Of a stretch of DNA of 64,000 bases, positions 1 to 7,318 are shown piece by piece. The notes beneath the pieces are model-generated. The model saw nothing but the letters and a program-made list of their open reading frames with translations. It was not told the DNA's origin and did no database searches. How positions within the stretch are numbered: position 1 is the first letter of the stretch; every line of letters begins with the position of its first letter. This DNA is from Escherichia phage HildyBeyeler, in the sequence record MZ501074; one strand, written 5' to 3'. The translations under genes and the position numbers were made by a program.

Positions 1-1220
1 TTAGAGTTATTAACAAAGGCTTTTAATGCCTGTTTTCGACCGTTATTAAAATAATCTTGAATATTACGACTATTATCTTTAGTTGCAATATACTCAGATA
101 AAGCTGGGCGGATCTCCTTCTCTAGCCAACCAAAATCTACACCATCCTCTAACGCTCGGTGATATAGCTTTGGAATAATACGTAGATATACACCATCCTC
201 AGCCTCTTCTAACTCGCTAATGGTTTCTTCTACTTTATCAGAAGCAATCTTTTTGCCTTTAATTTGATCGAGTAAAGAGTAGAATTCCTCTTTAAACTCC
301 CCTCTAGTTGTTTCATAGTCAACCAGATTATTAGGTAAATTTACTTTAGAACCCTTAACAAATACCAGACGTGAAGCACCCTCCGCTTTAAACGGATCAA
401 CTATACCATCAGTAAATAAAGGATCTGCAAAGTAATGGAGCTGTACGGAAGAGTAATAAGCTAAGTCGGCAATATCAAAGCCATACTTTTGTCTACTACT
501 TTCATTGATAGATGTAAATAAGAACTTGATCTGACCCTGTGTAACTTTAACATTAGATTCTAGTATTAAGTGCATTCGGATACCTGGTTTTAGTCCAGCC
601 GAAGACGATGCATGAGCAATAAACCCTGCATCAAGAGGAAACATATCCTCACTAATACTATTCAACATTCTAATAATATGACGCGCCATGCCAACAAGAT
701 CAAACTTGTTACAACCTCCTGTATCTACAATACCATCCACGTCCATTGCAATTATATGACTTGGGTTAGATACATTAAAGTTGTCCTTCTTACGCCGCAC
801 ATTATTTTTAGGTGCAAGACATCGACCTCGTACCGCAACGATATGGGGGTCAGACGTTAAACGTCTCATAAGAGGGAGCATTTCTACTAGGGTTTGAGGA
901 TCAACTTCATCAATTACATCAAACTTGAAGGGCATTGAAGCTGGTTTACCTTCAGGATGCTTTGAGGAAAATCTTTTAGCAAAAAGATAATCTTCTGCTT
1001 TAACTTCTCGCCAATTGCCCGTGGCTAAATCGCGATGAAATCCTGCATGACCTTGTAGGATTGAGAACACAACAATACTCCTGTGTTGGAAATGAAATAA
1101 GTTTTCTTTAGGACTATTCAGAAAGAATAGAACAACTGTTACTGTCAATTTCTCAACAATTAATCGCAAATACTGAAGTGGGGTGGCAACTTCCACTTTC
1201 ACGCTGCGCTGCTGCCTCAT
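1..1220 (-). CDS. hypothetical protein, C-terminal part runs off window start; possible primase/polymerase-like protein
   Basis: Hand translation: ATG at 1220-1218 stays open to position 1 (over 400 codons); absent from ORF track (no stop in window); IIAMDVDG and SAGLKPGIRMH motifs. Confidence 0.5.
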   Translation of the reverse strand, partial: MRQQRSVKVEVATPLQYLRLIVEKLTVTVVLFFLNSPKENLFHFQHRSIVVFSILQGHAGFHRDLATGNWREVKAEDYLFAKRFSSKHPEGKPASMPFKFDVIDEVDPQTLVEMLPLMRRLTSDPHIVAVRGRCLAPKNNVRRKKDNFNVSNPSHIIAMDVDGIVDTGGCNKFDLVGMARHIIRMLNSISEDMFPLDAGFIAHASSSAGLKPGIRMHLILESNVKVTQGQIKFLFTSINESSRQKYGFDIADLAYYSSVQLHYFADPLFTDGIVDPFKAEGASRLVFVKGSKVNLPNNLVDYETTRGEFKEEFYSLLDQIKGKKIASDKVEETISELEEAEDGVYLRIIPKLYHRALEDGVDFGWLEKEIRPALSEYIATKDNSRNIQDYFNNGRKQALKAFVNNS

Positions 1221-1771
1221 TATACCGCACAAATCCTTGAGGATGGCCGCTAAGCCGGATTTGCTCACCTAATGCTTCATATACTAGCTCATACTAGATG
1301 CAATATAACTTACAGAATCACGTCTCGGTAGTTTTTCACTCCTCCCATCTCACTTCACAACCACCTCATACTAGGTTGCTTCGAGGCCTTACCAGGGTTC
1401 CTATGGGACGCAGATCGCTAAGTATTCTATTAACTATTTGTTTAAAAACTAACACGTAACAGTTAAAACAACCCTTAATGGGGCAGCCTAACTGTTCCGT
1501 ATCGCGGATTGTAAACAAGAAAAAACTTTTTCGTAAAGCTCTAGCAACGTACCTTATGCAGCTATTTACGGGTCATCGATTCCTCTCGCCGTAAATCCAT
1601 TGTCAGCTTCACTAAGAAAAATTAGCAAAATCAATTTTTACTAATGTCTCTCAATTCAATATAAATATTATAGCAAGATTTTGAGCATCATGCAAGTAAA
1701 TTTTTAAGGAGAATGCTATCAGTGTCTTTGAGCACAGTGAAAACCGAGCCAAAATGACTCGGTTATGTGGA

Positions 1772-1966
1772 TTAGACACTTAAAATACTTCTAATCTCTT
1801 CTATATACTTATCTACTTTTTTAGCATCTATTTTACTTAGTTTTCCTATATCAAAATCAGGATCAGTCAAATATCTTGCCATAAATTTTACTTGTTTAGC
1901 TGAAAGTTGACCCTTATTCCACTTTTTAATTTTACCATAACATACCCAATATTCTTTATTCATCAT
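1772..1966 (-). CDS. hypothetical small protein
   Basis: ORF track; last gene of compact minus-strand array. Confidence 0.4.
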   Translation of the reverse strand: MMNKEYWVCYGKIKKWNKGQLSAKQVKFMARYLTDPDFDIGKLSKIDAKKVDKYIEEIRSILSV

Positions 1967-2348
1967 TTAGTCCCGAAACATAAATCCCAACACGGTTTAA
2001 TTGTTCTTTGGCTTCTTTGAGAATATCTGGAGTGTACTCCCAAATATCATCTTCCACCTGTAAAAGATGGGGCGAACAACCGTCATCGGGCACACGACAT
2101 ATGGCCAAACCACGTGGATGGAACAAAGAGAAATTTAGTGCAACAATTAAACCCATAGCAGACAACTCATTCCAATCCAATTCCCATTCCCTAGCGTAGC
2201 CTGATAGGAAAACACCAATACAGGGATCGTCTATTTGCTGCTCCGGAAAAGTAAAGGAGGCTTGTCTTACCCCCAACCAACGTTGTAGCAGCTTCTCCGC
2301 ACGCTTCACCAAACTAGGATCAATCTGACGCCAATATACTTGTTCCAT
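1956..2348 (-). CDS. hypothetical protein, paralog of 2358-2786
   Basis: ORF track; shares CIG...MGL(I/V)xALN...LF(H/M)P motifs with neighbour. Confidence 0.55.
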   Translation of the reverse strand: MEQVYWRQIDPSLVKRAEKLLQRWLGVRQASFTFPEQQIDDPCIGVFLSGYAREWELDWNELSAMGLIVALNFSLFHPRGLAICRVPDDGCSPHLLQVEDDIWEYTPDILKEAKEQLNRVGIYVSGLNDE

Positions 2349-2357
2349 TGTGCCACC

Positions 2358-2786
2358 TTAGGCAGTTAAACCAGGAATTTGATAACCAAAACGACGAAGT
2401 TTCTGGATACCATCATTTACTTCTTCCGGTGAGTAAGACCAACCGTAATGTTCATCAACTTGAAAGCCAGGAGATTCACTGGTTTTATAGTTAACAACAA
2501 TACGGTGTTTATTGGGCATAAATAGCTTATAGTTTAATGCAAAAACCAACCCCATTTCATCCAGCTCTTTCCAGCCGACAATCTCTTCCAGACCATCCTC
2601 TACCTGCACAACTAGACCAATACACGGGGCCTCATCAATATCATCTTTAAAAGCAAAGGAGATTTCATTATTTTCACACCATATTTTCAAGGAGTTAATA
2701 GTCTCATTATACAGGCTAGCTGGGAGAGTACGCCAGAAGTTAACCAAAATTGGATTAGCTTCTTTAGAGAATACATTATTGAACAT
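2358..2786 (-). CDS. hypothetical protein, paralog of 1956-2348
   Basis: ORF track; tandem duplicate. Confidence 0.55.
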   Translation of the reverse strand: MFNNVFSKEANPILVNFWRTLPASLYNETINSLKIWCENNEISFAFKDDIDEAPCIGLVVQVEDGLEEIVGWKELDEMGLVFALNYKLFMPNKHRIVVNYKTSESPGFQVDEHYGWSYSPEEVNDGIQKLRRFGYQIPGLTA

Positions 2787-2788
2787 AT

Positions 2789-3295
2789 TTACACCTTAAG
2801 TTGTTGTAGGGCTTTACACATTTCAAGATCTGGACTAAATTCTAGCATATAGCTAACAGCCATTAAATCTTGAAGGTTTATTCCAGTTCTACCGTTGACT
2901 ATAACCGTTGGATACTGGTACATCATAGCACCAGCGTCATCCAGCACACACCAATGTTTGAGCTTATGCTTTTCAACGAAGCGAAGAACAGAATTACCCC
3001 TAGATAGCCCACCACCAGTAAAATCCGTTGTACCAAGAAAACGATCAATAAGATCTAATCTGGTCATAATCTGAACGTTCTCCATCTCATTCCTGACAGA
3101 GAACCATGAAGATACCCCAACAATCATTATTGGAGAAGGACGAATAAAGTCCTGAAAAGCCTTGAGAAGCGGCTTAAAAACCCAGTCACTTCCAAAGAAA
3201 ATCTTTTCATCATCAGGTGCATGATGGTGGGAGATGCTCGAATTAAGCACCCCATCGATGTCTAGAAAAATAATTGGAGTATTACTTATTTCCAT
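2789..3295 (-). CDS. HAD-superfamily phosphatase-like protein
   Basis: N-terminal IIFLDIDGVLN (DxDG HAD motif I). Confidence 0.5.
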   Translation of the reverse strand: MEISNTPIIFLDIDGVLNSSISHHHAPDDEKIFFGSDWVFKPLLKAFQDFIRPSPIMIVGVSSWFSVRNEMENVQIMTRLDLIDRFLGTTDFTGGGLSRGNSVLRFVEKHKLKHWCVLDDAGAMMYQYPTVIVNGRTGINLQDLMAVSYMLEFSPDLEMCKALQQLKV

Positions 3296-3464
3296 TTCTG
3301 TTCCTTTCTAAGAACGTATCATACTCAACCGTATCAACATATATGACACCATAGTCATCGGATTTATAGTCCATTTCCCATAGCTCACATCGATAGCACC
3401 AACTACCATCCGCCCATACAAATATATCATCGGGATGTGTATACACAGATTTAACTATGGACAT
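3282..3464 (-). CDS. hypothetical small protein
   Basis: ORF track; overlaps neighbours by a few nt. Confidence 0.4.
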   Translation of the reverse strand: MSIVKSVYTHPDDIFVWADGSWCYRCELWEMDYKSDDYGVIYVDTVEYDTFLERNRNGNK

Positions 3465-4279
3465 ATTTGTTTTCCCGGCATATAAGGTCTACCCTCTAGA
3501 TGAGCTTCTACACGAGCAATAAAACCAGGATCACTGAAAGCATCTACTGCACCTTTACTCCAGTAAGGAATACCACGATCTTCCAGTTGGTACATATCAC
3601 TACGAGTCATACCTTGATAGCCTGGTTTCGACGCTAGGGCACTATCATAGTAGTTAACTACCATAAGTTTCGCAGCAGTCCGATTAAGAACAGGGAATAG
3701 TTCCCAGTAGAAGTTAATTACTTGGTTAGAGCAACCAACTACAACGATCATATCTTGACTGGTAATACCATCAAAAATATTGTACATTTCTGCGTACGCT
3801 GGAGCATGCTCACCAAAAAAGATTACATTAGGTTTAACCCATTTATAATCATCTGGGTCAATAGAGTTATACCCAACATCAATAACCCGTTTATTACTAC
3901 TATTGTAGCTATCAGCTACAACAACCTCTTTTAAATATCCGTGAATGTGCAGAATATCACTATGTGGAACGCCAGCACGCTCAATAAGGTCATCAACGTT
4001 GGTAGTCAAGTTTACTACTTGACCCGGATATTTCTTATACCATTCACCAATACGCAAGTGTGCAAGATTAGGTTCAACAGTTTCTAACTCTTCACGCCGC
4101 TTGTTGTAAAACATATGGGTTTTATGATAAAAGTTACCACGAAAGGCGTGAATATTACATACTTCTTCTAGATCATAATCATCCCACAGTGCTTTACCAC
4201 TAGCAGTATCGGTACGAAAAGCTCGTACACCACTTTCAACGCTCAAACCTGCACCGCTAATAATAATTAATCTACGCAC
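3455..4279 (-). CDS. Sir2-family NAD-dependent protein (sirtuin-like)
   Basis: GAGLSVESG near N-terminus, TTNVD, HG and VVVGCS motifs in sirtuin order. Confidence 0.65.
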   Translation of the reverse strand: MRRLIIISGAGLSVESGVRAFRTDTASGKALWDDYDLEEVCNIHAFRGNFYHKTHMFYNKRREELETVEPNLAHLRIGEWYKKYPGQVVNLTTNVDDLIERAGVPHSDILHIHGYLKEVVVADSYNSSNKRVIDVGYNSIDPDDYKWVKPNVIFFGEHAPAYAEMYNIFDGITSQDMIVVVGCSNQVINFYWELFPVLNRTAAKLMVVNYYDSALASKPGYQGMTRSDMYQLEDRGIPYWSKGAVDAFSDPGFIARVEAHLEGRPYMPGKQICP

Positions 4280-4473
4280 TATACGATTCCTCGCTTAAAT
4301 CCTTCGATAATATTTCGGAGTAAAATTGCTTCCTCCGGGCGTACCTTCTCTTGCTTAATAAGCATATCCAATCCAGCAATACAACTAGTTACACCAGCAT
4401 TATAACCAGAGTTCCATTGCTCAATGAGCATGTTTTCTAGATTACTTTTTAGATTCTGATTCAAGAAGTCCAT
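4279..4473 (-). CDS. hypothetical protein
   Basis: ORF track; AGGAG 7 nt upstream of ATG. Confidence 0.45.
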   Translation of the reverse strand: MDFLNQNLKSNLENMLIEQWNSGYNAGVTSCIAGLDMLIKQEKVRPEEAILLRNIIEGFKRGIV

Positions 4474-4648
4474 AAAGTTTCTCCTCTAGTCCCATAATAC
4501 GATTTTCATAAGAAGCACGCAACTTTTCAATTGCCAGCGCACGCACTGTAACCTCATTAGAATTAATAGCTAACTGGGCCAGATCTTCTGTTTCCATACG
4601 TCCGTTGTAAATTAAGCGATATTTAAGGTGTTTCACATTCTTGGTCAT
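4442..4648 (-). CDS. hypothetical protein
   Basis: ORF track frame; start moved to internal ATG 4648 preceded by GGAG. Confidence 0.4.
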   Translation of the reverse strand: MTKNVKHLKYRLIYNGRMETEDLAQLAINSNEVTVRALAIEKLRASYENRIMGLEEKLYGLLESESKK

Positions 4649-5021
4649 TATTAAACTCCACTGCAACTGTTTCTAGGTCTTCGTCAAAAAAACTAGAGTA
4701 TGTATCTTTAAGATACTGTTTAATACTCCAAGTAATATCTTCGTATCCATCTGGACTACGTTGGTATACTTTTAACACTCTATTATACACAAATTCAAGA
4801 TTACATTTTACTTCATCTCTGTCTTCATCAAACAAGCAATATGGGTTATATGGCGATACATCTAGATTTGTTTCCACCCAATCACCAATAACGGTGGGGT
4901 ATCCAGCACCATCTATATGAGAGTAATCACCTGTGGCAGCAAAGACAGCCTCAGCAATATCATCCACGCCCAGATGGAAATCACCACATGTAGATTCAAC
5001 TATATAGGGCTTTAATTCCAT
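4623..5021 (-). CDS. hypothetical acidic protein
   Basis: ORF track; immediately downstream of nrdD, no radical-SAM CxxxCxxC so not NrdG. Confidence 0.5.
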   Translation of the reverse strand: MELKPYIVESTCGDFHLGVDDIAEAVFAATGDYSHIDGAGYPTVIGDWVETNLDVSPYNPYCLFDEDRDEVKCNLEFVYNRVLKVYQRSPDGYEDITWSIKQYLKDTYSSFFDEDLETVAVEFNNDQECETP

Positions 5022-5120
5022 ATCTTTCTCCTCTCAAATTTATAAATCTATTATACATAAATTTTTAGCTGAAAGCAAATAAAATAAAAGCCAGGTCGAC
5101 TAGCAACCCGGCTGATTAGC

Positions 5121-6947
5121 TTACTTAAGATTTAAGTGTTTTACTCTACCAAGAACTTCTTTTTGTTTCCCAGAATTGAAAGGCCTACTGCTAGGGGATC
5201 CCAAGTACCCGCAAACCCTACGTGTAACCTCTATTTCTTCAGACCCACAACTCGGACATACAAACCCACGTTCAGAGGCAACAGATTCACCCATATACCC
5301 ACAGTTGAAGCACTCATCAATTGGTATATTAACACCAATATAATGGCTACATTCTAGCCCCTTATCCACCACATACTCAAGAGCTTTGTGGAACTTTTTC
5401 ATTTGAGGTAGTTCCACAAATGATATATTACCACCATTAGCTATTTTGGTAAAATGAGCCTCGTACTCAAATTTAGTATCTGGGGCTACCTTCTCTCTTA
5501 CGTCCAAATGGTGACTATTAGTGAGATAGCCTTTATCTGTTAGCCAAGAATACTCTGGGAATCTACGTTCTAGTAATTTATTAAAACGATTACATAGAGA
5601 CTCACTAGGAGTAGCGTATAAGCTAAATCCAAGATTAGTCTCATTAGCTTTAACTTCGCAACGATTTTTTAGGTGAGTAAGAACTTCTTCTGTAAATTCA
5701 ATACAATCCCTATGGGTTTGTGGTAGACCAAACATTATTTGGCACATCTCATAGACCCCAATGTATCCAAGAGATACAGAAGATCTACCCTCAAAAATAG
5801 GCCATACATACTCTTCCCCATCTAAACGCACACCAAAACCACCGTGCATATAAAGAATAGGGGCTTGTTTAGCCTTAACTTTCTTCAGTCTGTTTAAGAA
5901 GAAGTCATGCGCTTCAAAAGCCTCATCCACATATTTGTCTAGAATATCCCAGAAATCTTCAAAAACCCCATCTGCCTCAGCAGCAACCATAGGTAGATTA
6001 ATAGACACTACACCTAAATTATTGCGCCCTGCAATTTCTCCGGAGGGGATAGCAGATAAAAAGCTACGACAACCCATAGGTGCTTTAAAATCACCAGTAA
6101 CAGCTACAACTTTCTCATAGCTTAAATAGTCCGGGTACATACGGGTAGCAGAACACTCAAGTGCTAGCTGTTTTATATCGTAGTTAGGATCGCCTGGATT
6201 TTTATTTAACCCTTCTTTAACTGAGAATACTAGTTTAGGGAAGATAGGGGTTGACTCAGCAGCACCTAAACCTTTAATACGGTTTTGGAGGATGGCTTTC
6301 TGAATCATCCTTTCCTCCCACTCCTGTCCTAGCCCAAAGCCAAGCGTAACAAAAGGAGTCTGTCCATTAGAGTTAAATAATGAATTAGTTTCATACTCTA
6401 GGGCTTGGAATGCGTCATAACACTCTTTTTCAGTGAGTTCAGTAGCATATACAGCAGCTTTCCTTTCATCCTTGAGCCAACGTAGACCACGACCCAGGTG
6501 CTTATCATAAGACTTTCTGACATAAGGGGCTAAAACCTCATCGATACGATCAATAGAAGTGCCACCATACTGAGCACCAGATACTTGGGCAATAATCTGA
6601 GCAGTGATTGCACATGCAGTAGTTATGGATTTAGGAGTTTCAATATTTGCATTACCAATTTTAGTACCATTCTTCAGCATGCCACCAAGGTCTACTAAAC
6701 AACAGTTAGTGTATCCCTGTGCCCTGTAATCCATATCATGGATGTGTATTTTACCTAGATTATGGGAGTCTAATAGATGTTTAGGTAATTCTTGTGCTAC
6801 TAAATACTTGTTGATTTCTCCAGCTAATAAGTCTCTTTGGGTATGGAACATCTCACTAGGCTTATTAGCATTATTATGTTGTAAGTCCTTATCAGCAGTT
6901 AGAGTGAGCAGGCCTTTGCAATTCTCAATTAATTCATTCTCTGTCAT
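5121..6947 (-). CDS. nrdD: anaerobic ribonucleoside-triphosphate reductase (class III RNR)
   Basis: 608 aa; C-terminal CxxC..CxxC zinc ribbon followed by RVCGY glycyl-radical motif. Confidence 0.9.
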   Translation of the reverse strand: MTENELIENCKGLLTLTADKDLQHNNANKPSEMFHTQRDLLAGEINKYLVAQELPKHLLDSHNLGKIHIHDMDYRAQGYTNCCLVDLGGMLKNGTKIGNANIETPKSITTACAITAQIIAQVSGAQYGGTSIDRIDEVLAPYVRKSYDKHLGRGLRWLKDERKAAVYATELTEKECYDAFQALEYETNSLFNSNGQTPFVTLGFGLGQEWEERMIQKAILQNRIKGLGAAESTPIFPKLVFSVKEGLNKNPGDPNYDIKQLALECSATRMYPDYLSYEKVVAVTGDFKAPMGCRSFLSAIPSGEIAGRNNLGVVSINLPMVAAEADGVFEDFWDILDKYVDEAFEAHDFFLNRLKKVKAKQAPILYMHGGFGVRLDGEEYVWPIFEGRSSVSLGYIGVYEMCQIMFGLPQTHRDCIEFTEEVLTHLKNRCEVKANETNLGFSLYATPSESLCNRFNKLLERRFPEYSWLTDKGYLTNSHHLDVREKVAPDTKFEYEAHFTKIANGGNISFVELPQMKKFHKALEYVVDKGLECSHYIGVNIPIDECFNCGYMGESVASERGFVCPSCGSEEIEVTRRVCGYLGSPSSRPFNSGKQKEVLGRVKHLNLK

Positions 6948-7137
6948 TGATTATTTCCTCAATAAACTTTATAGCTACTTTTGGTTCAATATTGAAGAAT
7001 TCCGTAGCGCCGTCAAAATCTTTGTACTGGCAATTCTGCTCTTTAAAGTAGTTATGGGCTAATTTTTCTATTCGAACTGCACTACTATATTCTCCAATTT
7101 CAAATACTTTAATTTTTTCGGCATTACTCTTCTCCAC
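6934..7137 (-). CDS. hypothetical protein
   Basis: ORF track; first gene of leftward operon. Confidence 0.45.
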   Translation of the reverse strand: MEKSNAEKIKVFEIGEYSSAVRIEKLAHNYFKEQNCQYKDFDGATEFFNIEPKVAIKFIEEIINDRE

Positions 7138-7318
7138 AGAATTTTCACACCTATTATACTAAACATTATCCACTATGTCAATTAAAATTTTCTTTCGCCA
7201 CCTAATACTGTAATATTCCGCGTATAAATAAATGATTATCTAATACCATACATTTCCCGTTAAAAGCAAGCAAATTTTTTATTTAAATGCAATATCATAG
7301 GCTTATTTAAAATTGTAG

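What the first reader, a model, noticed from the sequence alone, without database searches (positions are those of the whole stretch)
1..1771. Long truncated ORF missed by the ORF track, followed by 550 bp without ORFs
The minus strand is open from 1220 to the window edge, so 612-860 plus is an antisense artefact. The product has DxD and SxxGxxH-like motifs hinting at a primase/polymerase fold. Positions 1221-1771 carry no ORF but include the hairpin AACCGAG-N9-CTCGGTT, so they must hold this gene's promoter and the terminator of the nrdD operon.
Basis: partly seen in the sequence, partly recalled or inferred. Interest (0 to 1): 0.35.

Follow-up and report, generated by a model that had tools for sequence, protein, structure and literature searches.

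The report
T5 primase-helicase gene with structured leader
The window starts inside a known T5-type phage replication gene (a primase-like domain fused to a helicase), and the "empty" 700 bases upstream hold a terminator, a standard T5 early promoter and a roughly 590-base conserved, folded untranslated leader that I could not find described anywhere.

Summary
The window comes from a T5-like phage (Demerecviridae; 93-98% nt identity to Salmonella phages EH1 and Tennessee).

**The gene.** The minus-strand ORF is real. It is the first 356 codons of the ~928-aa "replication origin-binding protein" (T5.108, the D2 helicase of Wong et al. 2013). It is open up to ATG 1220, but that extension is not conserved. 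The real start is GTG 1070, 7 nt after AGGAG, as T5 annotates. ORF 612-860(+) is an antisense artefact.

**The primase hint holds.** DxD, SxSxG..H and D motifs are invariant. An AlphaFold model (pLDDT 95) matches only AEP primase-polymerases among real fold hits, though weakly. Distant homologues carry VapE, D5 and PriCT_2 partner domains.

**The ORF-free stretch is 1071-1771:**
- an intrinsic terminator at 1764-1740, which ends the unit started at promoter P5078, not nrdD (nrdD has its own terminator);
- a canonical T5 early promoter (-35 at 1695-1690, -10 at 1672-1667);
- a ~590-nt leader with no conserved ORF.

**The leader is the new part.** It has 78 predicted pairs, 17 with compensatory changes, and a long-range helix that recurs in four sequence families. 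One hairpin carries an invariant UUAGCG loop. There is no Rfam match.

The gene, promoter and terminator are ordinary and already annotated. The leader's function is inferred: control of D2 expression is most likely, and a role in replication initiation is the rival.

The parts
1..1070 (-). 5' part (codons 1-356 of about 928) of the T5.108 / D2-type 'replication origin-binding' gene. This part encodes the N-terminal AEP-like primase-polymerase domain plus a helical domain. The gene runs off the window edge.
   Evidence: phrog_3712 matches at E 9e-189, starting at residue 51 of the 1220-start ORF. tblastn finds 904 phage records. AF2 gives pLDDT 95, with AEP fold hits.
1068..1082 (-). Ribosome-binding site AGGAG (1082-1078) and true start codon GTG (1070-1068).
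   Evidence: A GTG/ATG after GGAG is conserved in all 37 loci examined. It equals the annotated T5.108 start. The N-terminal MFSIL..GH motif is conserved out to Vibrio phages.
1071..1220 (-). In-frame extension that is open by chance in this phage. It is not coding and belongs to the leader.
   Evidence: Stops interrupt it in most relatives, and its sequence is replaced in T5-type genomes.
1068..1660 (-). Untranslated leader of about 590 nt, from the predicted transcription start to the start codon. It is conserved and highly structured.
   Evidence: RNAalifold predicts 78 pairs, 17 with compensatory changes. In one search, 99.9% of cells are paired, 0 of 500 shuffles reach the observed values, and slid controls give 0-3 pairs. 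The sense strand folds to -159.7 kcal/mol against -124.7 for the antisense. No ORF is conserved, and there is no Rfam hit.
1614..1652 (-). 5'-terminal hairpin A of the leader.
   Evidence: A hairpin is predicted at the same place with a different stem sequence in the Klebsiella-, Providencia- and Pectobacterium-phage lineages.
1517..1621 (-). Facultative 97-nt insertion forming an extra stem-loop domain. Its ends are ambiguous because of an 8-nt direct repeat, TTTTTCTT.
   Evidence: It is absent from T5 and most relatives. It is present once, with most matches unannotated and at central genome positions like the window's, in 49 phage records.
1468..1512 (-). Hairpin B, containing the conserved motif AUACGGAACAGUUNGGCUGCCCCAU (1502-1478).
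   Evidence: It is invariant in 27 T5-like leaders, and the motif is kept in Klebsiella and Pectobacterium phage lineages.
1408..1468 (-). 5' strand of the long-range helix.
   Evidence: It pairs with 1133-1175 and 1201-1215. Duplex energy is -39 to -53 kcal/mol, with z from -3.7 to -6.7 in seven leaders from four sequence families. Compensatory pairs are listed (helices 3 and 4).
1229..1264 (-). Hairpin D. It has an 8-bp outer stem, a 3'-side internal loop of about 8 nt, a 3-bp inner stem GGC/GCC and an invariant hexaloop UUAGCG (1253-1248).
   Evidence: CUUAGCGG is invariant in 12 sequences. Nine of the ten enterobacterial-phage leaders tested keep a fully paired inner stem, and eight have an 8-10-bp outer stem of differing sequence, with a 7-9-nt internal loop and shuffle P of 0.002-0.035. 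The inner stem covaries as GGC/GCC, GAC/GUC and GCC/GGU.
1176..1198 (-). Hairpin E (AAGUGG / CCACUU), with the loop AAGUUGCCACC.
   Evidence: The stem reads AAGGGG/CCCCUU in L005, AUAUGA/UCAUAU in T5, GUAUGA/UCAUAC in L026 and UAAGGG/CCCUUA in L044.
1133..1215 (-). 3' strands of the long-range helix (1133-1175 and 1201-1215), interrupted by hairpin E.
1102..1130 (-). Hairpin F (CUAUUC/GAAUAG, 1130-1114), followed by AAAGAAAA (1109-1102), which pairs with UUUUCUU near 1523-1517.
   Evidence: These are helices 11 and 1. The Klebsiella-phage lineage has CUAUC/GAUAG at the corresponding place.
1667..1705 (-). T5 early-type sigma-70 promoter. It has an A-rich upstream element, -35 TTGCAT (1695-1690), a 17-nt spacer and -10 TATAAT (1672-1667). 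The predicted start is near 1660.
   Evidence: The sequence is nearly identical to the promoter annotated upstream of T5.108. TTGCA-N17-TATAAT is conserved 500-650 nt upstream of the start in most lineages examined (about -800 in L073/L074). It is one of about 33 sites in the window with the same extended consensus, including the P-N25 type.
1740..1764 (-). Intrinsic terminator-like hairpin. It has a 10-bp stem, a UUU loop and a run of 4 U, and begins 8 nt after the stop of ORF 1772-1966.
   Evidence: the repeat finder I16. T5 annotates it as a putative rho-independent terminator. The Klebsiella-phage lineage keeps a hairpin plus U run with a different stem. The generic scan does not call it, because the U run is short.
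612..860 (+). Antisense ORF artefact inside the primase-helicase gene.
   Evidence: Internal stops occur in 26 of the 29 distinct relative sequences compared.

Best explanation
**What is shown**
- The window begins inside the first gene of the T5-type replication cluster, the homologue of T5.108. Its domain coordinates match the 'D2' bipolar SF2 helicase characterised by Wong et al. 2013.
- Translation starts at GTG 1070, not ATG 1220.
- Reading the minus strand from upstream, the sequence holds, in order:
  1. a terminator-like hairpin (1764-1740) that would end the unit started at the promoter at 5078;
  2. a canonical T5 early promoter (-35 at 1695-1690, -10 at 1672-1667);
  3. an untranslated leader of about 590 nt.
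- The leader folds into a closed multi-domain structure. It has a 5' hairpin, a conserved hairpin B, and a long interrupted helix pairing about 1468-1408 with about 1215-1133. That helix encloses a central domain containing a hairpin with an invariant UUAGCG hexaloop. A weak hairpin holds the Shine-Dalgarno sequence in its loop and pairs the start codon.

**What is inferred**
- The leader is a cis-acting RNA that sets how much primase-helicase is made.
- The 5' part pairs with the sequence just upstream of the ribosome-binding site.
- The long double-stranded helix is the kind of substrate that RNase III processes in phage early transcripts.
- The invariant loop is a likely docking site for a protein or for another RNA segment.
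- Transcription, processing and any regulator were not tested here.
For: **Gene identity**
- Megablast finds 445 T5-like records at 80-98% identity, with synteny to T5.099-T5.108.
- phrog_3712 matches at E 9e-189.
- Full-length relatives carry PF02399 at residues 389-533, the same coordinates as the D2 protein of PMC3632103.

**Start codon:**

**AEP domain**
- D110, D112, S155, G159, H167 and D202 are invariant or nearly invariant across 78 homologues down to 20% identity.
- Distant homologues carry VapE-like, DUF5906, PriCT_2, Pox_D5 and D5_N domains.
- The AF2 model has pLDDT 95 and pTM 0.81.
- Nearly all Foldseek PDB top hits are AEPs: LigD PolDom, ASFV PrimPol, RepB', S-2L PrimPol, vaccinia D5 AEP and human PrimPol.
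- BFVD gives 59 hits at E <= 1e-3, including named primases and primase-helicases.

**Promoter:**

**Terminator:**

**Leader**
- About 20 other promoters in the window are followed by an ORF start 25-41 nt after the -10 hexamer. This one is followed by 597 nt.
- No ORF is conserved in the leader, and no terminator-like site lies inside it.
- G+C is 44-46% in 1126-1425, against about 35-40% in the flanking sequence.
- Of 78 predicted pairs, 17 show compensatory changes. 99.9% of cells are paired, 0 of 500 shuffles reach the observed values, and slid controls give 0-3 such pairs.
- Many positions hold G-U pairs, which would be A-C mismatches on the other strand. The sense strand folds 35 kcal/mol better than the antisense.
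- The long-range helix recurs with different sequences in the window-type, T5-type and two Pectobacterium-type lineages, with z from -3.7 to -6.7.
- Hairpin D keeps its geometry with different stems in eight lineages.
Against: - No transcript data were available, so the start site, read-through into the gene and any processing are predictions.
- The structure was derived from the same alignment it is scored on. That alignment holds essentially three clades, so many 'compensatory' cells trace back to few events, or to recombinational replacement of a whole module.
- The energy z-score of the whole leader is modest (-2.2).
- The long-range helix was not significant by my test in the Klebsiella (z -1.2), Providencia and L073 lineages.
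- Vibrio-phage relatives lack the conserved motifs.
- T5 also encodes a separate putative primase (T5.121) and a DnaB-like helicase, so primase activity of this domain is not required a priori.
- The terminator has only 4 U, and the generic scan does not call it.
Confidence: 0.65

Rival explanations
1. The ORF-free region is, or contains, a phage replication origin or a primase-helicase loading site. On this view the promoter-driven transcript acts as a primer or R-loop, as in ColE1 RNA II or the T4 oriF/oriG origins. Alternatively, the hairpins form in single-stranded DNA and are recognised by the AEP domain of the adjacent protein, as RSF1010 RepB' recognises ssiA/ssiB hairpins.
For: - The region lies immediately upstream of the gene annotated as origin-binding, at the start of the replication cluster, and about 48% along the T5 genome.
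- A long ORF-poor stretch of 600-1600 bp precedes this gene in every Demerecviridae lineage looked at. This includes Vibrio and Aeromonas phages, where it lies between divergent genes.
- Aeromonas phage TS3 has three copies of TTAGCGG on the gene's sense strand in that stretch, one in a clear hairpin loop.
- RepB' is among the Foldseek hits.
- The C-terminal half resembles the cyanobacterial plasmid replication protein CyRepA1.
- Wong et al. proposed an initiator role for D2.
Against: - The stretch is G+C-enriched rather than an A+T-rich unwinding element.
- No iterons or conserved direct repeats were found.
- The covarying helices contain many G-U pairs and fold far better on the transcribed strand. 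That fits RNA, although sense-strand ssDNA is not excluded.
- Recombitron editing data suggest dominant unidirectional T5 replication from one genome end rather than from a central origin (PMC10055335).
- The origin has never been mapped to this site in any paper I could reach.
Confidence: 0.15
2. The structured RNA is a stand-alone non-coding RNA. It would be released from the leader by processing and act in trans, with the primase-helicase gene expressed from read-through or from a second promoter.
For: - The element is large and closed by a long helix that could be cut out by RNase III.
- A second promoter-like site (TTGATT-N18-TACAAT) exists about 465 nt upstream of the start in most relatives, and is split by the 97-nt insertion in this window.
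- L036, L073 and L074 have an extra promoter-like site 66-96 nt upstream of the start.
Against: - No terminator-like site lies between the promoter and the start codon.
- The element has no second copy in the window.
- Helix 1 ties the 5' part to the sequence next to the ribosome-binding site, which suggests action in cis.
- There is no similarity to any Rfam family.
Confidence: 0.1
3. There is nothing functional beyond a promoter and a terminator. The rest would be spacer or the remains of decayed genes, with the apparent structure a by-product of relatedness and base composition.
For: - The generic scans find no more promoter-like sites than shuffles do, and no terminator.
- The z-score of the fold is only -2.2.
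- The central part is replaced wholesale between window-type and T5-type genomes.
- PHANOTATE-style annotations place small ORFs here.
Against: - The length, the promoter position and several motifs are kept across lineages whose protein is only 60-76% identical.
- Where the sequence is replaced, pairing is kept. Slid-partner controls, which preserve relatedness, give 0-3 compensatory pairs against 17.
- Small ORFs differ in frame and length between lineages and lack ribosome-binding sites.
Confidence: 0.1

Closest known systems
Bacteriophage T5 gene T5.108, 'replication origin binding' protein (the D2 bipolar SF2 helicase of Wong, Sayers & Sanders 2013, PMC3632103)
   Same: - It is an orthologue: about 91% amino-acid identity over residues 1-356.
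- It has the same start codon context and the same upstream promoter and terminator.
- It has the same gene neighbourhood.
   Different: - Only the first 356 codons lie in the window.
- The central part of the leader is a different sequence family from T5's, and this phage carries an extra 97-nt insertion.
- The 2013 paper describes a helicase with a putative HTH and does not mention a primase domain.
AEP primase-polymerases fused to helicases, such as the All3500 family of the PrimPol-PV1 supergroup (Kazlauskas et al. 2018, PMC5862659), ASFV PrimPol C962R and vaccinia D5
   Same: - An N-terminal AEP-type domain with DxD, H and D motifs is followed by a helicase.
- Distant homologues of this domain carry VirE/VapE, D5 and PriCT_2 partner domains, the set listed for All3500-like proteins, some of which are fused to UL9-like SF2 helicases.
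- Structural hits go to ASFV PrimPol and to the poxvirus D5/E5 AEP domains.
   Different: - No AEP sequence model in Pfam or NCBIfam matches.
- Fold-search scores are weak.
- Motif II is spaced SxSxG(x7)H.
- Membership of the All3500 family itself could not be tested, because no model of it was available.
Long structured 5' leaders of phage and bacterial mRNAs that are processed by RNase III or bound by an autoregulator (lambda N leader, T7 early RNA sites, E. coli rnc and pnp leaders, T4 gene 32 and gene 43 operators). These are recalled from my own knowledge.
   Same: - It is a promoter-proximal untranslated RNA with long double-stranded segments.
- A hairpin with an invariant loop sits upstream of a gene whose dosage matters.
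- The start-codon region is base-paired.
   Different: - It is far longer (about 490-760 nt) and more elaborate than those operators.
- No sequence or Rfam similarity exists.
- Neither cleavage nor a binding protein has been shown.
Transcript- or hairpin-dependent origins: ColE1 RNA II, T4 oriF/oriG, and RSF1010 ssiA/ssiB recognised by RepB'. These are recalled from my own knowledge.
   Same: - A strong promoter drives a structured RNA of about 0.5 kb next to the initiator gene.
- The adjacent protein has a RepB'-like AEP fold hit.
   Different: - There is no A+T-rich unwinding element.
- There is no evidence of initiation here.
- Published editing data point to replication from a genome end.

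Membership tests
T5.108 / D2 'replication origin-binding protein' family (phrog_3712) | Sequence match to the family profile from its first position | tested here: met
   E 9.2e-189; profile positions 1-356 align to residues 51-406 of the 1220-start ORF, which corresponds to a start at 1070.
T5.108 / D2 'replication origin-binding protein' family (phrog_3712) | C-terminal UL9-like SF2 helicase (PF02399, Walker A near residue 400) | not testable with these tools
   This part lies beyond the window edge. It is present in T5 and in the relative whose N-terminal 356 aa are 99.7% identical (phage Tennessee) (PF02399 at 389-533).
T5.108 / D2 'replication origin-binding protein' family (phrog_3712) | Conserved position downstream of the nrdD / Sir2-like gene block, at the head of the replication cluster | tested here: met
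   The gene order matches EH1, Tennessee and T5.
Archaeo-eukaryotic primase (AEP) superfamily | Motif I: acidic DxD/DxE at the end of a beta strand | tested here: met
   D110-V-D112 is invariant in 11 Demerecviridae sequences and at least 90% conserved in 78 homologues. It lies in predicted strand 104-114.
Archaeo-eukaryotic primase (AEP) superfamily | Motif II: small residues followed by a conserved His (sGxGxH type) | tested here: met
   S155-S-S157-A-G159 ... G163-I-R-x-H167, with S155, G159 and H167 at least 90% conserved in 78 homologues. The spacing is longer than in the classical motif.
Archaeo-eukaryotic primase (AEP) superfamily | Motif III: conserved Asp | tested here: met
   D202 is invariant in all 78 aligned homologues.
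Archaeo-eukaryotic primase (AEP) superfamily | AEP catalytic fold | tested here: inconclusive
Archaeo-eukaryotic primase (AEP) superfamily | Match to a curated AEP sequence model | tested here: not met
   There was no Pfam family at E <= 1 and no NCBIfam family at E <= 0.1 for residues 1-356. PDB sequence search gave nothing relevant.
Archaeo-eukaryotic primase (AEP) superfamily | Primer synthesis or polymerase activity | not testable with these tools
   This needs biochemistry.
T5 early (sigma-70) promoter | -35 TTGC(T/A)T, 17-nt spacer, -10 TATAAT, A-rich upstream block and a conserved downstream ATAAATTGA..GAGAG block | tested here: met
   Window 1705-1640 fits the consensus of about 33 sites in the window and of T5 P-N25. 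It equals the promoter annotated in the T5 record and is conserved in all lineages. The generic scan misses it, because the -35 matches only 3 of 6 positions of TTGACA.
Intrinsic (rho-independent) terminator | G+C-containing stem-loop directly followed by a U run | tested here: inconclusive
   A 10-bp stem is present, and a hairpin is kept with a different stem in the Klebsiella-phage lineage. T5 annotates it as a putative terminator. The U run is only 4 long, and the scan's criterion of at least 5 T in 8 is not met.
Any described RNA family (Rfam 15) | Covariance-model match | tested here: not met
   There was no hit at gathering score in the window. In window 900-2000 the only hits at E <= 10 were two noise matches inside the coding region (E 1.2 and 9.3), none in the leader. 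Nothing was found in the leaders of six other lineages at E <= 0.1.
Replication origin | A+T-rich unwinding element and repeated initiator-binding sites | tested here: not met
   The stretch is G+C-enriched. There is no conserved direct-repeat family. Only Aeromonas phage TS3 has a repeated TTAGCGG.
Replication origin | Mapped initiation of DNA synthesis | not testable with these tools
   No mapping data could be reached. The 1976 electron-microscopy paper is not held.

The most novel reading that the evidence does not exclude
The conserved, folded element of about 0.5 kb upstream of the primase-helicase gene may be more than an expression leader. It could be the cis-acting site where T5-like phages start replication. 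The promoter-driven structured RNA, or the same hairpins in single-stranded DNA, notably the invariant UUAGCG loop, would be recognised by the AEP domain of the adjacent protein, which loads there and primes. That would give T5 a defined origin and a new kind of RNA- or hairpin-guided primase-helicase loading.
Probability: 0.13. Interest if true: 0.75.

Novelty: new member of a known kind. Interest (0 to 1): 0.42.

Why it matters
- **Annotation.** GenBank records start this gene at three different codons, equivalent to window 1220, 1070 and 935. The comparative evidence fixes GTG 1070.
- **Biology of the protein.** T5's D2 has been studied only as a helicase. An N-terminal AEP-type primase-polymerase domain with intact catalytic-type residues would make it a primase-helicase of the kind that initiates replication in plasmids and large DNA viruses. 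T5 also encodes a separate DnaB/DnaG-like pair.
- **RNA.** About 20 early promoters in the window are followed by an ORF start within about 25-41 nt (most of the remainder lie in the tRNA region or lack a nearby ORF). This one is followed by about 590 nt, and that stretch is conserved in length, motifs and pairing across enterobacterial Demerecviridae.
- **A test object.** The leader gives a concrete object for testing how T5 controls its replication initiator. Because the T5 origin is still undefined, it is also a candidate site to test for initiation.

Tried and rejected
- **Start at ATG 1220.** Rejected: the extension is interrupted or replaced in most relatives.
- **Start at ATG 935,** as annotated in phage EH1. 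Rejected: residues 1-45 are conserved at protein level out to Vibrio phages.
- **Small ORFs or a leader peptide in 1071-1660.** Rejected: they have TTG starts without a ribosome-binding site, and their frames and lengths differ between lineages.
- **Known RNA families.** Nothing was found in the leader.
- **Single-sequence AlphaFold.** It failed, with pLDDT 35.
- **The search for homologous proteins.** It returned only two fragments.
- **afdb50 library.** It was not available.
- **MAFFT alignments of hairpin D.** They could not be put in register column by column, because the internal loop varies in length. I therefore measured stems lineage by lineage against shuffles instead, and built no covariance model.
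- **Metagenome scan with ACRGAACAGTNNGGCTGC.** It was too unspecific: of 120 loci, only two were real T5-like sequences.
- **The 97-nt insertion as a mobile repeat.** Rejected: it occurs in one copy per genome, at what looks like the same locus where the match could be placed.
- **Second copies of the leader in the window.** None were found; only the promoter is repeated.
- **Vibrio-phage relatives.** No shared motifs with the enterobacterial leaders were found.
- **Literature.** Searches for a T5 origin map, a T5 transcriptome or a described leader found nothing usable. The 1976 origin paper is not held.
Full report
**1. Where the window comes from**

Bases 1-2400 match 445 phage records at 80-98% identity, almost all T5-like Salmonella and Escherichia phages. 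The best matches are Salmonella phages EH1 (Epseptimavirus) and Tennessee. Their annotation, and that of T5 itself, places the finding in a fixed gene order. On the minus strand this runs nrdD, a block of small genes including Sir2-like ones, a non-coding gap, and then the 'replication origin binding protein'. The window also holds a 21-gene tRNA array, as T5-like genomes do.

**2. Checking the observation**

- Translating the minus strand shows one frame without stops from about 1272 to the window edge. Its first ATG is at 1220.
- The ORF listing omits this ORF only because it runs off the source.
- ORF 612-860(+) lies inside it on the other strand. In relatives, that plus-strand frame has internal stops in 26 of the 29 distinct sequences compared.
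- The hairpin is at 1742-1764 and extends to a 10-bp stem with a 3-nt loop.

**3. The true start codon**

I fetched 32 related loci from IMG/VR. In most of them the in-frame extension upstream is cut by a stop 12-41 codons before a conserved GTG or ATG that follows GGAG. In T5-type genomes the sequence of the extension is simply different.

- The conserved start is GTG 1070-1068, with AGGAG at 1082-1078.
- This is the annotated start of T5.108.
- It is also where the PHROG profile begins.
- Residues 1-45 (MFSILxGH...) are conserved at protein level out to Vibrio phages. The ATG at 935 used in the EH1 record is therefore too far downstream.
- GenBank thus carries three different starts for this gene.
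- The ORF-free stretch is 1071-1771.

**4. The protein**

- phrog_3712, 'replication origin binding', matches at E 9e-189.
- Full-length relatives (928 aa) have the herpesvirus UL9-type domain PF02399 at 389-533. Those are the coordinates given for the T5 'D2' protein, which was shown to be a bipolar SF2 helicase (PMC3632103).
- The RefSeq T5 record puts the name D2 on T5.111 instead.
- The window holds residues 1-356, upstream of the helicase.
- This part has no Pfam, NCBIfam or PDB sequence match.

Evidence that it is an AEP-type domain:

- An alignment of 11 Demerecviridae homologues, down to 27% identity, keeps D110, D112, S155, S157, G159, G163-I-R, H167 and D202 invariant.
- An exhaustive HMMER search found 81 relatives. 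In a 78-sequence alignment the same D, D, S, G, H and D positions are at least 90% conserved.
- The distant relatives carry VapE-like, DUF5906, PriCT_2, Pox_D5 and D5_N domains, the usual partners of primase-polymerase domains.
- AlphaFold with that alignment gave pLDDT 95 and pTM 0.81. The single-sequence run had failed.
- Nearly all Foldseek PDB top hits are AEP enzymes: LigD polymerase domain, ASFV PrimPol, RepB', S-2L PrimPol, vaccinia D5 AEP domain, Prim-PolC and human PrimPol. The scores are weak, with E from 4e-3 upward and TM 0.2-0.4.
- BFVD gives 59 hits at E <= 1e-3, including named primases and primase-helicases.
- Fusions of an AEP domain to UL9-like SF2 helicases, VirE and D5 are described for the All3500 family (PMC5862659). 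I could not test membership of that family.
- The helicase half also resembles the cyanobacterial plasmid replication protein CyRepA1, below cutoff.

T5 separately encodes a DnaB-like helicase and a putative primase. This protein is therefore more likely an initiator-type primase-helicase than the fork primase. That last step is inference.

**5. Terminator and promoter**

On the minus strand, ORF 1772-1966 stops at 1772. Eight nucleotides later comes AACCGAGUCA-UUU-UGGCUCGGUU-UU (1764-1740).

- T5 annotates the equivalent as a putative rho-independent terminator.
- The Klebsiella-phage lineage keeps a hairpin plus a U run with a different stem.
- The generic scan does not call it, because the U run is short.

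It is not nrdD's terminator. nrdD stops at 5121 and is followed at once by its own hairpin (5113-5089) and T run, overlapped by a promoter at 5078. T5 has the same arrangement.

The promoter of the primase-helicase gene has -35 TTGCAT at 1695-1690, a 17-nt spacer and -10 TATAAT at 1672-1667.

- It has an A-rich block upstream and the block AUUUAUAUUGAAUUGAGAGAC downstream.
- It is almost identical to the promoter annotated upstream of T5.108.
- It is conserved 500-650 nt upstream of the start codon in most lineages examined (at about -800 in L073/L074).
- It is one of about 33 sites in the window with the same extended consensus as T5 P-N25.
- The start site near 1660 is predicted by analogy with P-N25, from my own knowledge.

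**6. The leader**

About 20 of the other promoters in the window are followed by a ribosome-binding site and an ORF 25-41 nt after the -10 hexamer. Here 597 nt intervene.

- The stretch has no conserved ORF.
- It has no terminator-like site.
- It has no second copy in the window.
- It has no Rfam match in this or six other lineages.
- It is G+C-enriched: 44-46% against about 35-40% nearby.

RNAalifold on 27 distinct T5-like leaders predicts 78 pairs, 17 of them with compensatory changes. Counting on that alignment gave the following:

| Measure | Observed | Control |
|---|---|---|
| Cells paired | 99.9% | 93.6% in shuffles; 37-48% in slid versions |
| Pairs with changes on both sides | 17 | mean 13.3 in shuffles (0 of 500 reach 17); 0-3 in slid versions |
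| Covariation score | 0.245 | at most 0.065 in slid versions |

The structure was derived from the same alignment, and the sequences form about three clades, so these numbers overstate independent support. However, some compensations are nested within clades (pairs 114/323 and 116/321 in L005 and L013), and some partition the sequences differently from the main clade split (pairs 65/392 and 264/298).

The architecture, 5' to 3' on the minus strand:

1. Hairpin A (1652-1614).
2. A 97-nt facultative insertion (about 1621-1517).
3. Hairpin B (1512-1468), with the conserved AUACGGAACAGUUNGGCUGCCCCAU.
4. A long interrupted helix pairing about 1468-1408 with 1215-1201 and 1175-1133.
5. Inside it, a variable central domain that contains hairpin D (1264-1229).
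6. Hairpin E (1198-1176), branching from the 3' strand.
7. Hairpin F (1130-1114).
8. Helix 1, which pairs UUUUCUU (about 1523-1517) with AAAGAAAA (1109-1102) just upstream of the ribosome-binding site.
9. A weak hairpin (1088-1068) with AGGAG in the loop and the GUG start codon paired.

Support beyond the T5-like clade:

- **Long helix.** The 70 nt after hairpin B and the 115 nt before the ribosome-binding site form duplexes of -39 to -53 kcal/mol. The z-scores are -3.7 to -6.7, with 0 of 300 shuffles as good. This holds in window-type, T5-type, L026-type and two Pectobacterium-type leaders, whose sequences there are unrelated. The test was not significant in the Klebsiella, Providencia and L073 lineages.
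- **Hairpin D.** Its hexaloop UUAGCG is invariant in all 12 sequences compared. The inner 3-bp stem covaries as GGC/GCC, GGC/GCU, GAC/GUC and GCC/GGU. The outer stem is 8-10 bp with a different sequence in eight lineages, always leaving a 7-9-nt internal loop on the 3' side, with per-lineage shuffle P of 0.002-0.035.
- **Hairpins A and E.** Both change sequence while keeping pairing.
- **Strand.** Many paired positions hold G-U, and the sense strand folds 35 kcal/mol better than the antisense. That fits an RNA made from the gene's strand.

**7. What the leader does**

Nothing here tests function.

The reading I favour is a cis-acting leader that controls expression of the primase-helicase:

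- It is transcribed from the gene's own promoter with no terminator in between.
- Its 5' part pairs next to the ribosome-binding site.
- The start codon is paired.
- The long double-stranded helix is the kind of target RNase III cuts in phage early RNAs.
- The invariant loop looks like a recognition site.

The main rival is a role in replication initiation:

- An ORF-poor stretch of 600-1600 bp precedes this gene in every Demerecviridae lineage I looked at, including Vibrio and Aeromonas phages.
- Aeromonas phage TS3 has three TTAGCGG copies on the sense strand there, one in a clear hairpin loop.
- The adjacent protein is a putative initiator, and RepB', a primase that recognises hairpins, is among its fold hits.

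Against the rival:

- The stretch is not A+T-rich.
- It has no iterons.
- The structure favours RNA.
- Published editing data suggest T5 replicates mainly from one genome end.

**8. Verdict**

- The gene, its promoter and the terminator are ordinary and already annotated in T5.
- The primase-type domain is hinted at in some GenBank product names ('DNA primase') but absent from the one functional paper I could read on the protein.
- The long structured leader is, as far as Rfam 15 and the searchable literature show, undescribed. It is the only part that deserves follow-up.

Noticed in passing
window 1517-1621 (minus strand): A 97-nt insertion in the leader forms its own stem-loops and is flanked by the 8-nt direct repeat TTTTTCTT. 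It is present in 49 of about 530 T5-like phage records, once each, apparently at the same locus, and is scattered across sub-lineages (for example the T5-type locus L024).
   Followed up: partly
window 1772-1966 (minus strand): A 64-aa ORF lies between the T5.107 homologue and the terminator. It exists only in a subset of relatives and is absent from T5. Loci L011, L015, L022 and L028 carry a different insert of about 500 bp at the same place.
   Followed up: no
window 1956-2348 and 2358-2786 (minus strand): These two adjacent ORFs (130 and 142 aa; the T5.107 and T5.106 homologues) are about 30% identical to each other, so they are tandem paralogues.
   Followed up: no
window 7000-62200, both strands: About 33 sites share an extended T5 early-promoter consensus (A-rich block, TTGCTw, 17 nt, TATAAT, atatttATAAATTGAtGAGAGG). 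About 20 are followed by an ORF start 25-41 nt after the -10 hexamer. Those with long gaps mostly sit in the tRNA array at 20.8-32 kb.
   Followed up: partly
window 5076-5113 and 6947-7181 (minus strand): nrdD has its own terminator hairpin (5113-5089 plus a T run), overlapped by the next promoter (5078). A promoter-like site at 7181 lies about 205 nt upstream of the nrdD start, which is another unusually long leader.
   Followed up: no
L077 (T5 NC_005859) 546-3332 and 4123-4827: The RefSeq T5 record gives the gene name D2 to T5.111, a 234-aa helicase. The 'D2' protein characterised in PMC3632103 (PF02399 at aa 392-532) fits T5.108 instead.
   Followed up: partly
L001 2281-4935; L002 2284-5220; L003 709-3495: GenBank records annotate three different start codons for this gene, equivalent to window 935, 1220 and 1070. 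They also use several product names: origin-binding protein, DNA primase, DNA primase C, helicase and hypothetical protein.
   Followed up: yes
L040 219-1808 (Aeromonas phage vB_AdhS_TS3): A 1.6-kb stretch without annotated genes lies between a small annotated hypothetical gene next to divergently oriented nrdD and the origin-binding gene. It has three TTAGCGG copies on the sense strand, one of them (at 699) in a clear hairpin loop. Vibrio phage phi 3 has a comparable 1.1-kb gap (L037 826-1928).
   Followed up: partly
L003 709-3495 (T5.108 protein residues 392-708): The helicase half matches the NCBIfam model CyRepA1, a cyanobacterial plasmid replication protein, at E 6e-35. The score of 121 bits is below the curated cutoff of 200.
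   Followed up: no
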